Below are positions 16,459 through 49,780 of a stretch of 64,000 bases of DNA, one piece after another. The position numbers and the translations under genes are program-made. Every line of letters begins with the position of its first letter. Position 1 is the stretch's first letter. The notes below the pieces were generated by a model. That model was not told where the DNA came from, made no database searches, and saw only the letters and a list, made by a program, of their open reading frames with translations. The stretch comes from Octopus sinensis (Eukaryota): positions 63,550,001-63,614,000 of the forward strand of contig NC_043005.1 of the NCBI RefSeq assembly GCF_006345805.1, read 5' to 3'.

Positions 16459-16742
16459 TGCCCTGCTACAAAAGAAGAAATTGGCATAACGTGGAAGTAG
16501 ATGTCTTCAAAAAAGGAATTAGACATCCTCCTCTCCACAATACCGGATGAACCAACAGCCCGACATGAGATACAGATGAGGGCAGTGGACTCAAACTCAA
16601 TTATACATTAAATGTACCAACAGCTGGAAAAAAGGCATATACAGGAGTGGTGATGTGAAGCACCCAGACTGAGGAAGTAATAAAAACCATGGTGGTGCTC
16701 CAGCATGACCACATCCGCATGGCTGAAACGAGAAAAAGAGTA
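16459..16742 (+). mobile_element. CR1-group (CR1/L2/Crack-like) LINE 3' end
   Basis: [13 protein letters not shown]/(frameshift)[31 protein letters not shown] fits the FK-x-x-LD-x-x-L-x-x-IPD-x-P...SNS ORF2 terminus; followed by a short 3' UTR ending GGTGCTCCAGCATGACC...CTGAAACGAGAAAAAGAGTA. Confidence 0.75.
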
Positions 16743-17130
16743 TATATATATCTATACATATAAATTTGACATGGGCGATTCTTTCTTGATTTGGGATTCA
16801 CGGTCAAAAGGCTGGGTGAAATTGTGCAAAAATCTATACGTATGGGTAGATTGATCCGGTGGTGATGATGGGCGTTGTATTTTTTCATAGCTTTCATGGT
16901 TACCGAGATAATCTACTATAATCATAATCTTGTGTTTATGAATGAGAAAGGAAGGGGTGATACATGAATATGGAAGAATGGGGTGATGTCATACTTGATA
17001 GTGTGATGATGAAAATTTTACGCTGAAAGAAATAAATGAAACAGCGTTTAAAATCTGTGTGAATATGGGTGTGTATGTAAAAGGGGAGTATGTGAATGTG
17101 TGTGTGTGTGTGTGTGTGTGTGTGAGTGTC

Positions 17131-17175
<45 letters not shown>

Positions 17176-17249
17176 GTAAGCTCACTAGAAGTGGGATGGT
17201 TGGGGTATGTGAATGTGTGTGTTTATGTTTGTGTATGCAAGCGGAATAC

Positions 17250-18398
17250 CTATGACATTTGTAATGTGAAGTCCTTTCATGGATCGGAATGCTGGAAAGA
17301 CTACAGTCTGGTGCGAGCAAAGTTCTGGATGATGATTAAAGTGAATGAGAGGGTCAGATGGCATTCCTCGGCGTCTGAATGTCCACAAGATATATGATGT
17401 TGTGTTGAAGAAAGAGTTACAGACTCGCTTGTCTGGTACTAAAAACACTACAGTATGGGAAGATTTTCGAGACCAGGTTCTTCAAGGTGCTGCTGAAACA
17501 CTGGGATAAGCTACTGCCAGACACAGAGACTGGTTTGATGAAGATGATGCTGAAGTTTAGCGACTATTGGTTGTAAAGCACCATGCACACAATATATTGC
17601 TGCACACAGAACTTTCAGCCGTGCAATGAAATCTAGCACTTGCCCATTATAGTAGTGTAAAATCACTACTGCAGAGATCTCGCAGGAAGATGCAGAACAC
17701 TTGGTGGGAGGATCTTGCTCGTGATATTTAGGCTGCTTTTGATGCAAGTTATGAAGCAAATTTATGGGCCTAAGAGCTCTACATCAGCTCCTTTGCTTTC
17801 CAAGGAATTTTCTACTCTATATACTAAATCAACAGAAATCACAGGTCACTGGATTGAACACTTCTCTGAACTCCTGAACCATGAGTCATTTGTGAATGAA
17901 ACAGTGATTGGTACTATGCAACAAAAACCTGTCATTGGTTCCTTAAATTCCACGGCCTCAATAGATAAGTTAATGACAGCAATAAGTAAATTGAATCTTG
18001 ATAGAGTACCTGGAAAGGATGGAATTTGTGCTGAGGTCTTGCGATTTGGTGGTGATTTTATCATTGTCTCTTCATGAACTTATTAGTGTAGTCTGGAGGG
18101 ATGCTGCAATGCCTAAGGATTGGAAAGATGGAATTATTCTTCCTCTCTATAAAGGAAAAGGAGCCAGAATAATGTGTGGTAACTACAGAGGTATTGCCCT
18201 ATTATCAGCTGCTGGCAAGGTTCTGACAAATATTATTCTTACCCGCTTGAATGGGGTTCTCGTAAATGATGTCCTATCTGAATTTTAATGTGGCTTCCGA
18301 TCTGGTAGAGTGACAATAGATATGATTTTACAGCAAGACAGATGCAGGAGAAATGCGCTGGGCAGAATATGGATCTTGACCAGGTATTCATTGATTTG
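17250..18398 (+). mobile_element. RTE-clade LINE fragment (end of endonuclease, linker, N-terminal RT), pseudogenised
   Basis: [69 protein letters not shown]...[42 protein letters not shown]. Has stops and frameshifts; cut off at (TA)n. Confidence 0.93.
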
Positions 18399-18466
<68 letters not shown>

Positions 18467-19995
18467 TATATATATATTATATATATATATACATATACAT
18501 GCATGTACACATACATACATATTTACGTATATATACGTGTACATAAACACACACATATATATATACATATATGTGTATATGTATTTATATATATATATAC
18601 ACACATATGTATTTATGTATACATATATTTATGTATATATATATATATAGGATCAGTAATCGATTAGTAACCGATTAGTAATCGTTGCAATTGAAACCCT
18701 ACAATAGAGCGATGCAGTTCCTTCAGGTCTTAACTTGATATCGCTCGGCATGGACGTTTAATGATTTTCTTTTATATATGAGCATCAGAGGGTATGCTTA
18801 TATGTATATGTTCATGTATTTGCATGCATTCGCGTCGCGTGTACATGATTACAAGGTACAGTTATTTCTCATTCAGTCTGATAAGGTTTCTCCCAAGGTT
18901 TTGCCGACAAAATTTTTTCCAATGAATTATGTATTTATAATTAGTATCATGTTACCATATATTCTACACCTGGCATACTAGATGCATAAAGATTTTGACA
19001 TTTAACTGGAGATATATTTCCAAAAGCTGTATTATGATAGCTTCAACATTTTCATTCAATATTCAGTATTTAGTTAATATTTAGAATGGTATTTTTAATG
19101 GAGCAGGCATTCTTGTTTCAGGTATTGGACTAAGCATGAATCTGTTATCATTGTAGTGCAATAGTACAAGAAATGACATTCTCACAGCCTTTAAAACGAA
19201 GTTTTTGCAGTATTCGTTGTATACTTAGTTAAAATGATACTTCCTCGTTCTGCATTTAATTTTTTTTTCTTTTTATCATTTAACAATTGTGTCAGTTTTC
19301 TTTAAGGATAGTCTGCTTTTAAGGAGACATTGCTAAGGAGCCATGCCTTTATTTCCTGATTGAGTGAAGAAAAGAGAAAATAGAATAGAAGAAAACAAAA
19401 TAAAATAAAATAAGATTGAATGAAACAGCTGCCAGAAAGTGAAAAAGAAACGAGAGCGATATTGCAAAACGAGACGTAAATAAAAAGACAGGTAGAATAG
19501 AATTGGAACGTAGACAGCGATTCACATTGAGATGATAGACGGAAAATCTGAAGTGTGGACAGAAGCAAATGTAATCCGACTCGAGCAAAGAGGTTAAGTA
19601 GCAGCATTTCTGATGAATGGAAGTAAATGTGTGAACATTTATAAGTTAATAAATGAGTTAATGCTGATACATACATTGCTGCGACAATTTTATTTACACT
19701 ACACTTATGTTACAATATCCATTTCTAACACAAATTCTCTGAAATAGAAAGAACCGACTTGGTTTCTGCTTAAATAAGACTGTCCACAAGTCTGTACATT
19801 CTTACGATGACAGGAAAAATTCATCCAAAGCCATGAATTTACCAGATCAAGACATGTGGTGGAAACGTTTACTTTGCAACCACACGGTTGCTGGTACGAT
19901 TCTACAGGCAAGAATTTCTCAATACAGAATTCCCAAATTAGTCAACTAATACATTGCCAGTGAAATCTGATAGACTAAAACTGTATGGAATCCCG

Positions 19996-20044
<49 letters not shown>

Positions 20045-47629: not shown

Positions 47630-48287
47630 TACACTTATATAGATGTATAATATACATAAGTACATGCACGCACAGACACAAGCACACACACACATACAAA
47701 CACATGTATATACACAGCTAACCCATGCATAAAACATATGTATTAAGCACTGATTATGAAAATGTTTGATGTACAATGTGAAACGAAGCCTACAATGCGC
47801 ATCTGCACCAGGCCTGTTACCTATTTGGCACGAATCTGCCAGCAGCCGAAGTAACAACACCTCTTTCTGTATCATTCTCATTCTCAGACAAAGAGCATAG
47901 TTTCGAAACTCATTATTCACTAATCACTGCAAATGAATTCCTTAAAGTCATTTGTGAACACATTTATCGACTAATTATAGCCGACACTGTCAATCAGGAG
48001 TTTTACCTGGTTTCGAATATTACAATTATCTTCCTTAAGTTTAGTTTTTACCATTTGAGCATTCACTAAAAGTAGTGACGAAACAATGTTGTATTTTGTT
48101 TTTCTTGATTCGCTTCTTTATTTCTGATAACCATTTCGGTAAGGATGTTGGGTTTTGAAGCTTCTAGAATCAATTAGATGTCATATGCACATTGCATTTC
48201 ATCATATCACATTCATAGAAAAAGAAACGGCAATAAAAAACATCCATTCAATTCCAATATAATTAGTAAAAATATTAGCATTGACAT

Positions 48288-48637
48288 TAAGGGTTCTCAA
48301 CCATTTTTTTTATCTGTGAACCCCTCTAATTACTATTTTATTCTGGTGGACCCCTTTAGCCATTCGATGTTTAATAACTAGTTTTATATACCCTTTTTTG
48401 AATATTCTTATCGTTTTTCACACATTAACTTGTATAGATGGAACTACGTAAAATGTTAGAGAAAGAAACCGAGCTGTTGCTCGCAATACATACCAATATA
48501 TACACCTAAAGCAAATTCTTTTCAAGGGCACTTAAAATACTATTGTGGCTCCCCAATTTATTTGTTTTATTGCGTGGATCCCCCAAAATCCTATATGGAA
48601 CTTCAGAGACCATATGGACCCTGGCGTGGAACCACTG
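48288..48637. mobile_element. hAT-type MITE (CAG-x-GGTTCTCAA-like TIR)
   Basis: Left TAAGGGTTCTCAACC, right GTGGAACCACTG; internal subterminal TGGACCCC-like repeats; 8-bp flanks attgacat / atttgcag match only partly. Confidence 0.65.
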
Positions 48638-49173
48638 ATTTGCAGAATCATTAATATAGATGTATGTAGAGGGCATTTACTTAAATGTAAATCCGTATTA
48701 AAGTGAGTTAGAGGTGAGTATAAAGCAAGCAACACAGAGATAATAAATTGGATTAAAGATAAAAACAAAAGAGGTGTATGTTACAGTGAAATGAGGTAAG
48801 TAGTTTCTAACGACTAAGTCGTATGCGGAATATCGATGGTAAACGTATATCGTGAAACTACCCTGAGGAAACGAGAATAAATCAATTAACTGATATCAAA
48901 AGAATAGTAACATTCAGTGGAATATTTGTTTTCGAAAACGAAAGGTGATTTCGAAGGCTTGATTGTGACGCTCTTGACCTCTTATTTCAGATGTAGGAAC
49001 AGATCCAATGTCAAATCTTTATAAGTGATCTGATAACGTATGATAAACTCTTTGAAATATGATTTTGAAAATCTACAGAATGACGTAAATATTTATAGAC
49101 GTGGTTAATTTGATAAAGGACATCTTGTGTGGGAAATACTTTCCTAAAAAGCAATAAATTACAAGCTATAACT

Positions 49174-49221
49174 CACGTGACTTGTAATTTATACACGTGA
49201 CTTGTAATTTATACACGTGAC
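49174..49221. repeat. 20-bp tandem repeat x2.4 giving three CACGTG boxes
   Basis: CACGTGACTTGTAATTTATA at 49174 and 49194, partial at 49214. Confidence 0.9.
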
Positions 49222-49328
49222 CTCTGACCTGCACTTTACTTACATGACTGACGTTTCATAATCTCGTTATAAAGCAACTTGTTTATTGAAACTGAAATCA
49301 ACAGAAACTAAATTAAGTGATCAAAATA

Positions 49329-49497
49329 GGCGCGGGAGTGACTGTGTGTTAAGTAGCTTTTTTACCAACCACATTGTTGTGGGTTCAGTCCCACTGCATG
49401 GCACGTTCGGCAAGTGACTTCTGCTATAGCCTCGGACCGACCAAAGCCTTGTGAGTGGATTTGGTAGAAGAAAACTGAAAGAAGTAAGTAGTATATA

Positions 49498-49546
<49 letters not shown>

Positions 49547-49780
49547 TATATATATATGTATGTATGTGTGTGTATATTTGTGTGTCTGTGTTTGTCCCCC
49601 AACATTGCTTGACAACCGATGCTTGTGTGTTTACGTCCCCGTAACTTAGCGGTTCGGCCAAAGAGACCGATAGAATAAGTACTAGGCTTACAAAGAATAA
49701 GTCCTGGGGTTTATTTTTTCGACTAAAGGCGGTGCTCCAGCATGGCCGCAGTCAAATGACTGAAGCAAGTAAAGAGTAAA
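49329..49780 (+). mobile_element. Full-length SINE group B
   Basis: GGCGCGGGAGTGACTGTGTGTTAAGTAGC head, GGGTTCAGTCCC, internal (TA)n(TG)n, tail GGCGGTGCTCCAGCATGGCCGCAGTCAAATGACTGAAGCAAGTAAAGAGTAAA. Confidence 0.95.

What the first reader, a model, noticed from the sequence alone, without database searches (positions are those of the whole stretch)
16459..49780. Modular SINE-LINE network: three SINE tails match three different LINE clades in the same window
Seen: the tail of SINE A at 42274-42315 matches the 3' end of the Tx1/L1-like LINE (31229-31271, -). The tail of SINE B (49728-49780; 40071-40135) matches the 3' end of the CR1-group LINE (16691-16742). The tail of SINE C at 42470-42519 matches the 3' end of an RTE LINE (27188-27235). 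Established: stringent-type SINEs share the 3' end of the LINE whose RT mobilises them. Inference: these SINEs use at least three unrelated retrotransposition machineries, and the partners can be read from this one locus. I do not know whether these pairings have been published.
Basis: partly seen in the sequence, partly recalled or inferred. Interest (0 to 1): 0.75.

Follow-up and report, generated by a model that had tools for sequence, protein, structure and literature searches.

The report
Octopus SINEs ride three LINE clades
Three common short jumping repeats (SINEs) in this likely octopus genome end in the same 45-60 bases as three unrelated groups of self-copying LINE elements and likely borrow each group's copying enzyme; two pairings are of well-known kinds, while a tail shared with Tx1-type LINEs was not found in the papers searched.

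Summary
Confirmed. The three tail matches are real (34/45, 42/52, 41/51 identical columns) and family-wide: consensus SINE tails match only their own LINE group (scores 52, 64, 81; 0 of 1000 shuffles each; six off-diagonal pairs not significant). The LINEs are unrelated (ORF2 about 22% identical): L1/Tx1-type, CR1-group, RTE. Corrections: the window gives the partner clade, not the family. SINE B fits a younger sister CR1 family better, through compensated hairpin pairs; SINE A's tail is shared by at least seven Tx1 families, its parent not found. SINE C and its RTE lie on the minus strand. Added: SINE C ends in a bipartite module (RTE 5' piece plus RTE 3' end) that usually sits on another head; SINE A's body also carries an older second tail; SINE A multimers move as units. 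Several LINE partners per genome and module swapping are published for bivalves and gastropods; RTE-bipartite SINEs are known. Only the Tx1-shared tail is possibly new; this scan noted that pairing before on other DNA of this genome. Repbase, Dfam and the 1994 octopus SINE paper were not available. Mobilisation is inferred, not shown.

The parts
16458..16745 (+). 5'-truncated 3' end of a CR1-group LINE; tail with two hairpins at 16691-16742
   Evidence: 93% to family consensus; 30 genome copies with the same end; longer copies carry RVT_1
27186..27514 (-). 3' end of an old RTE-clade LINE; tail at 27188-27235
   Evidence: 82% and 75% to family consensus; 25 copies; C-terminal peptide shared with a younger full-length single-ORF RTE
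31225..32830 (-). 5'-truncated L1/Tx1-type LINE with a deletion of about 130 bases near the ORF2 end; tail at 31229-31271
   Evidence: full-length relatives with zinc-knuckle ORF1 and APE-RT-zf ORF2
42083..42316 (+). SINE A, full length, with Tx1-type tail at about 42260-42316
   Evidence: 97.9% to consensus; 30 copies
42067..42082 (+). left copy of SINE A's 16-base target-site duplication (right copy 42317-42332), starting GGTAT
42464..42752 (-). SINE C: tRNA-like head, CORE domain, RTE 5'-derived piece, RTE 3' tail; 12-base duplication at 42753-42764 and 42452-42463 (one mismatch)
40077..40461 (-). young SINE B copy lacking its first 28 bases; CR1-type tail
   Evidence: 98.4% to consensus; 25 copies
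49326..49780 (+). full-length older SINE B copy; CR1-type tail at 49728-49780
   Evidence: 80% to consensus
41308..41736 (-). SINE B copy with CR1-type tail
   Evidence: 80.5%
51904..52336 (-). old SINE B-type copy
   Evidence: 76-79%
57427..57633 (+). 3' half of a SINE B copy with tail
   Evidence: 82%
12853..13072 (-). older copy with SINE A's head and body but the second tail type
63292..63520 (+). older SINE A-body copy with the second tail type
61905..62036 (-). partial SINE A-body copy with the second tail type
36006..36200 (+). old SINE A-body copy with the second tail type
61691..61881 (-). head and body of SINE D, the commoner carrier of the RTE module, here without the module
   Evidence: 91% to D consensus
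60876..61003 (+). SINE with SINE C's head and CORE but another 3' part

Best explanation
Three SINE families end in the 3' tails of three unrelated LINE groups (L1/Tx1-type, CR1-group, RTE) throughout this genome, and each is likely copied in trans by an ORF2 protein of that group, which would grip a predicted tail hairpin; the family that does so is likely a sister of the copy in the window. Shown: shared tails at family level, clade specificity, heads and bodies combined with different tails, SINE A multimers inside one target-site duplication. Inferred: RNA polymerase III transcription, tail recognition by ORF2, target-primed reverse transcription, and tail exchange by template switching or read-through of nested insertions. 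SINE A likely gained its Tx1 tail by replacing an older tail; the SINE C/D module likely came from an internally deleted RTE.
For: Consensus 3x3 test: diagonal 52, 64, 81 with 0 of 1000 shuffles reaching them; the six off-diagonal scores were reached by 114-981 of 1000. Tail-free queries: 18 of 20 Tx1 loci found by ORF2 DNA carry the tail; 7 of 9 old-RTE loci found by peptide carry it and 11 of 11 young-RTE loci carry a related one. LINE copies have common 3' ends and staggered 5' ends. In 600 kb taken at arbitrary places, 51 of 51 Tx1-type tails follow the SINE A body, 73 of 102 CR1-type tails follow the SINE B body, 5 of 5 RTE-type tails follow the C/D module. ORF2s are 22% identical pairwise; the Tx1-type one scores 199 bits on human L1 ORF2p against 86 and 112 for relatives of the other two. 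CR1-type tails keep two hairpins with compensated pairs in SINE B and four of five LINE families; RTE-type tails keep one long hairpin. SINE A duplications of 10-25 bases in 35 of 57 copies against 3 of 57 in swapped-flank controls. Stringent pairs are established (PMC3747384).
Against: No retrotransposition was tested. Target-site signatures did not link pairs: duplications were found in 4 of 30 Tx1 copies (2 clean, 13-14 bases), 4 of 27 CR1 (control 8 of 81) and 0 of 25 RTE, while SINE C has them in 7 of 20. SINE A duplications often start GGTAT, but the Tx1 families examined end in CTAT, ATT or CT repeats or in unique DNA. The Tx1-type hairpin is 3-4 pairs, not above shuffles in the window copies (z -0.6 and +1.2), and gave no consensus fold on 10 aligned tails. 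LINE ages come from best hits only and lean young. Clade names rest on domain layout and recalled motifs, not on a tree with named references.
Confidence: 0.8

Rival explanations
1. The tails are relics of origin; present mobilisation is by a relaxed enzyme (for example any Tx1/L1-type ORF2) that needs only the terminal repeat.
For: SINE A's tail is 83-92% like several Tx1 families and identical to none; its hairpin is weak; the old RTE family shows no young copies among 150 peptide hits whereas SINE D copies are 89-96% identical to consensus in 10 of 11.
Against: Compensated pairs in the CR1-type and RTE-type hairpins point to selection on structure; multimers end at a complete tail in 22 of 22 counted by that rule; a younger RTE family has a related tail.
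Confidence: 0.15
2. The LINEs took their 3' ends from the SINEs, or SINE fragments landed at the ends of these LINE copies.
For: SINEs outnumber these LINE ends greatly: 0 ends of the three window families in 600 kb.
Against: The tail follows the ORF in many independent copies and diverges along with the ORF across Tx1 families whose C-termini are 36-81% identical; the RTE tail begins inside the coding frame; SINE A's body is older with another tail (16% against 5.8% from own consensus).
Confidence: 0.03
3. The exact partner families are the three copies in this window.
For: For the RTE pair the window's family fits best: tail score 88 against 40 for the young RTE, and similar ages (SINE C 11-16% from consensus, old RTE 79-93% identical).
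Against: SINE B scores 70 on the sister family CR1b against 64 and shares both diagnostic hairpin pairs with it (22 of 26 and 24 of 26 pattern-matched tails in the unbiased set). SINE A scores 65 on a third Tx1 family against 52, and its CCC/GGG stem occurs in yet other Tx1 families.
Confidence: 0.15

Closest known systems
Stringent SINE/LINE pairs (eel UnaSINE/UnaL2 and the list in Ohshima 2013, PMC3747384; passages and Table 1 read)
   Same: tRNA-like head, body, 45-60-base LINE-derived tail, terminal short repeat; CR1 and RTE are the commonest partner clades
   Different: Table 1 lists no octopus pair and no Tx1 partner; its L1-clade pairs are from maize/sorghum and Chlamydomonas only
Bivalve and gastropod SINEs with several LINE partners (Martelossi 2024 PMC11481361, abstract and section 13; Nishihara 2016 PMC4824008 and Matetovici 2016 PMC4758252, passages and supplement rows)
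   Same: several LINE clades serve SINEs in one phylum; 35-61-base tails at 72-95% identity; heads, domains and tails exchanged; tandem-like SINE structures
   Different: partners there are CR1, CR1-Zenon, L2 and Nimb; here Tx1-type and RTE appear; cephalopods were not analysed
Bipartite RTE-derived SINEs such as WALLSI2, Mar-1, Bov-tA and squid Ceph-SINEs (Kojima 2018, PMC5786205; passages and supplement passages)
   Same: SINE C has the order tRNA head, CORE, RTE 5' piece, RTE 3' end, as WALLSI2
   Different: Ceph-SINEs carry another RTE 5' motif and a 3' end listed as unknown; the paper does not mention octopus
SINEU with Tx1-Mar in crocodilians (Kojima 2015, PMC4494074; passages)
   Same: a SINE tied to Tx1-clade LINEs
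   Different: link made by target preference; SINEU has a poly(A) tail and no LINE was found sharing the SINEU-1 3' part; SINE A shares a sequence tail
Octopus SINEs OK, OR1, OR2 (Ohshima and Okada 1994; paper not held; OR1 and OR2 named as CORE-SINEs in PMC4824008 and PMC4758252; the name OK is recalled)
   Same: same animal group, tRNA-derived; SINEs B and C may be these families
   Different: identity could not be tested; no partner LINE for them appears in Ohshima's 2013 table

Membership tests
stringent SINE/LINE pair | SINE family and LINE family share the 3'-terminal sequence | tested here: met
stringent SINE/LINE pair | conserved tail stem-loop | tested here: inconclusive
   met with compensated pairs for CR1-type and RTE-type tails; weak, no consensus fold for Tx1-type
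stringent SINE/LINE pair | overlapping activity periods | tested here: inconclusive
   ranges overlap at clade level but LINE values are from best hits only
stringent SINE/LINE pair | same target-site signature | tested here: inconclusive
   too few LINE duplications recovered; (TA)n after the end in 13 of 60 SINE B, 17 of 30 and 5 of 19 CR1 copies, background 7.5%
stringent SINE/LINE pair | tail-dependent mobilisation by that ORF2 | not testable with these tools
   needs a cell assay
tRNA-derived SINE | tRNA-like head with A and B boxes, short length, many dispersed copies, duplications | tested here: inconclusive
   length 234-414, copy number and duplications met; boxes read by eye only; ARAGORN and Rfam gave no tRNA match
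CORE-SINE (SINE C) | CORE domain after the head | tested here: met
   45 of 55 columns match BivaCORE-SINE2, counted by eye
Nin-DC SINE (SINE A) | Nin domain in the body | tested here: not met
   no likeness by eye to the Lottia and Littorina Nin sequences printed; my first label 'Nin-like' was recalled and is withdrawn
Ceph-SINE (SINE C) | Ceph-type RTE 5'-UTR motif after CORE | tested here: not met
   motif printed is absent from the consensus (by eye)
bipartite RTE-derived SINE (SINE C, D) | RTE 5' piece followed by RTE 3' end | tested here: met
   module matches a full-length RTE about 205 bases from its 5' end: 79%, E 2e-6, score 44 against shuffle maximum 26 of 500; 43 of 56 for D against the 15-copy consensus; the match is to a sister RTE, no full-length copy of the window's family was found
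L1/Tx1 clade | ORF1 plus APE-RT ORF2 with C-terminal zinc motif, closest to L1 | tested here: met
Tx1 clade proper | RT groups with named Tx1 elements; frequent target preference | tested here: inconclusive
   no named Tx1 reference available; 9 of 9 young copies with a read 5' junction start in (CTAT)n, as Kibi/Koshi do in other repeats (PMC4494074)
CR1 group | RT groups with named CR1, CR1-Zenon, L2 or Crack elements | not tested
   no named references among 120 hits; label rests on a recalled C-terminal motif
RTE clade | about 3.2 kb, single APE-RT ORF, short UTRs | tested here: met
   L369, 3.15 kb; relatives of about 980 aa from nematodes and moths; the clade name itself is recalled

The most novel reading that the evidence does not exclude
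Octopus Tx1-type LINEs are a stringent L1-clade lineage in animals that recognises a small hairpin before AATAAA, and SINE A, at tens of thousands of young copies or more, is the first animal SINE with a Tx1-derived tail. It took this tail in place of an older one that may itself come from another Tx1 family, inserts at a GGTAT-like site present in its own head, and so builds read-through multimers that can hand a SINE head to whichever LINE owns the outermost tail.
Probability: 0.4. Interest if true: 0.65.

Novelty: new variant of a known kind. Interest (0 to 1): 0.45.

Why it matters
L1-clade LINEs are held to be the exception that rarely gives tails to SINEs (3 SINEs for over 800 LINE families in PMC3747384, none animal). 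A very abundant animal SINE with a Tx1-type tail would show stringent 3' recognition in an animal L1-clade lineage and offers natural compensated variants for testing it. For octopus genomics it names candidate engines for SINEs that make up about 12% of the O. vulgaris genome and are mostly unclassified (PMC13282606). The CR1 and RTE pairs are useful annotation only.

Tried and rejected
Nin-domain label for SINE A: rejected against published Nin sequences. Dong/R4 as partner of SINE A's second tail: its 3' end, read in L213, L316 and L317, is unrelated; nine other CR1-type ends and the plus-strand RTE end scored 12-16 against that tail; an (ATT)n-ending Tx1 family scored only 13-27. A Tx1 family sitting at the fixed site in SINE A's head, reported by earlier notes: one pattern search gave 32 matches, of 30 read 28 were SINE multimers and 2 truncated SINEs; none among 264 tails and 210 heads in about 2 Mb of fetched DNA; this is weak evidence, as the pattern assumed the window family's tail. 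Duplication lengths for LINEs: mostly not recovered. tRNA identity of heads: ARAGORN 0 genes, Rfam only microsatellite noise. Single-copy tail folds: z below -2 only for 2 of 7. Sequence-motif search of papers: 5 unrelated hits. Three papers were not held and SINEBase supplements could not be read; these may name the families.
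Full report
Setting. The window lies in a 2.72-Gb animal genome, 35% G+C and rich in microsatellites. The closest named relatives of two of its LINE proteins are from the octopod Argonauta hians (68% and 56%), so an octopus is likely.

Observation. All three matches are at the stated places: 34 of 45 columns for SINE A and the Tx1-type end, 42 of 52 and 40 of 54 for the two SINE B copies and the CR1-type end, 41 of 51 for SINE C and the RTE end. 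Shuffled tails laid on the real window reach at most 29-31 against observed 34, 54 and 50 (30 shuffles each). SINE C and its RTE partner are on the minus strand. The long plus-strand RTE beside it is another element with an unrelated end.

Family level. Genome searches gave 30, 30 and 25 loci for the three LINE ends and 30, 25 and 30 for SINEs A, B and C. These queries held the tails, so they favour tailed copies. Independent checks: a tail-free ORF2 query found Tx1 copies of which 18 of 20 fetched carry the tail; a peptide query found RTE copies of which 7 of 9 old and 11 of 11 young carry it or a close form. LINE copies share 3' ends and have staggered 5' ends. Consensus tails match only on the diagonal: 52, 64 and 81, none of 1000 shuffles reaching them; off-diagonal scores of 12-19 were reached by 114-981 shuffles. 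In 60 stretches of 10 kb taken at arbitrary places, 51 of 51 Tx1-type tails follow the SINE A body, 73 of 102 CR1-type tails follow the SINE B body (26 other, 3 at an edge), and 5 of 5 RTE-type tails follow the C/D module. No end of the three window LINE families lay in those 600 kb, so the window is a lucky sample; co-location has no mechanistic meaning.

The LINEs. Young full-length relatives of the first are about 6 kb with a zinc-knuckle ORF1 (below Pfam's cut-off) and an APE-RT-zf-RVT ORF2, nearest to human L1 ORF2p among solved structures (199 bits); 9 of 9 with a read 5' junction begin in (CTAT)n. The second has RVT_1 and relatives of about 1000 aa without informative names; 'CR1 group' rests on a recalled motif. 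The third has a young full-length relative of 3.15 kb with one APE-RT frame and nematode and moth relatives. The Tx1 consensus ORF2 and the best database relatives of the other two are 22-23% identical pairwise. Three unrelated machineries is therefore right; exact clade names lack a tree with named references.

Partner clade, not family. The CR1-type tail folds into two hairpins in SINE B and four of five LINE families, with compensated pairs. SINE B has the pairs of a younger sister family, CR1b (20 copies, 93-99% to consensus), not those of the window's family; scores 70 and 64. The Tx1-type tail occurs in at least seven families with C-terminal identities of 36-81%, each with its own terminal repeat or none. 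SINE A scores 52, 54 and 65 on three of them and shares its CCC/GGG stem with others. Nine of ten such tails fold a 3-4-pair hairpin before AATAAA with differing stems, but the aligned set gave no consensus fold. The parent family was not found. For SINE C the window's old RTE family is the best tail match (88 against 40).

Modularity. SINE A's head and body occur with the Tx1 tail (52 of 116 body hits) or a second, (ATT)n-ending tail (41 by a loose rule; 23 other). The second form is older: median 16% from its own consensus (36 copies) against 5.8% (49 copies). The window holds four such copies. SINE C has a CORE domain (45 of 55 columns by eye against BivaCORE-SINE2) and ends in a module whose first half matches an RTE about 205 bases from its 5' end (79%, E 2e-6; score 44 against shuffle maximum 26) and whose second half is the RTE 3' end. 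Outside the targeted loci this module sat on another head (SINE D) in 14 of 16 tailed cases, and C's head and CORE carried other 3' parts in all 26 unbiased hits. SINE C is thus likely a recombinant. SINE A often forms multimers: 16 of 55 hits to its internal site follow a SINE tail rather than a head; 15 of 22 multimers lie inside one duplication (control 1 of 22), and monomers have duplications in 20 of 35 (control 2 of 35), often starting GGTAT, which resembles the internal site. One nested copy shows the intermediate (L094).

Ages and targets. SINE A 3-10%, Tx1 families 83-99% identical to consensus; SINE B 0-27% (median about 10), CR1 families 86-99%; SINE C 11-16%, SINE D 4-11% in 10 of 11, old RTE 79-93%, young RTE about 2%. 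Ranges overlap, but LINE values come from best hits. Target-site comparison was inconclusive.

Mechanism. Shown: shared tails, specificity, module exchange, unit movement of multimers. Inferred from eel and other stringent pairs (PMC3747384): the LINE ORF2 binds the tail and copies the SINE RNA at a nick. Confidence 0.8 at clade level; rivals are relic tails with relaxed mobilisation (0.15) and reverse transfer (0.03).

Literature. Several LINE partners and module swapping in mollusc SINEs are published (PMC11481361 abstract and section 13; PMC4824008, PMC4758252 passages and supplement rows; PMC5804259 passages). Bipartite RTE SINEs, including the order head-CORE-RTE5'-RTE3', are published (PMC5786205 passages and supplement passages). 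Ohshima's table has no octopus and no Tx1 pair (PMC3747384, Table 1 read). The one Tx1-linked SINE found, SINEU, has a poly(A) tail (PMC4494074 passages). The 2026 O. vulgaris annotation (PMC13282606, parts 1-2 of 3) names no pairs. Eight searches found no report of these pairings, but Repbase, Dfam, SINEBase supplements, Ohshima and Okada 1994 and Piskurek and Jackson 2011 were not available. Earlier notes of this scan report the SINE A/Tx1 pairing several times in this genome and once in another; a sequence look-up with SINE C found none.

Verdict. Real, well supported and mostly of a known kind. The Tx1-shared tail makes it a new variant. Interest 0.45.

Noticed in passing
window 27700-29560 (+): A second, decayed RTE-type LINE with a C-terminal zinc-finger-like stretch lies back to back with the RTE 3' fragment; its end matches none of the SINE tails. 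Another RTE-type fragment lies at about 17660-18400.
   Followed up: partly
L252-L270: Young full-length Tx1-type elements of about 6 kb sit in (CTAT)n at both ends, some in tandem; other Tx1 families end in (ATT)n or (CT)n, suggesting family-specific microsatellite targets.
   Followed up: partly
L096, L101, L114 (after the first SINE A unit): Composite copies: a Tx1-tailed SINE A unit followed by a partial unit with the second tail type, two of them with ATT repeats on both sides; a possible route to tail switching by read-through.
   Followed up: partly
window 40240-40270 (-) and SINE B consensus 198-225, 333-354: SINE B has two short internal stretches like SINE A's pre-tail and body end (28 and 22 bases, about 80%, E 9e-4 and 7e-3), possibly relics of an A-type module.
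   Followed up: no
L175, L178, L189, L190, L195, L214, L220, L226: At least three further SINE families share SINE C's head and CORE with distinct 3' parts; their partner LINEs were not sought.
   Followed up: no
L213:3900-6760, L316, L317: Young Dong/R4-type LINE ending in (AAT)n, three fragments in 600 kb.
   Followed up: partly
L368-L378, L388-L402: Young RTE family (about 2% from one another at the tail) followed by (TA)n in 10 of 11 copies.
   Followed up: partly
window 9269-9988: Inverted repeat of about 270 bases (79%) flanking a short centre, possibly a MITE.
   Followed up: no
window 61040-61090 and 61533-61583; 22462-22516 and 22605-22659: Pairs of inverted 50-55-base arms, possibly ends of small DNA transposons.
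   Followed up: no
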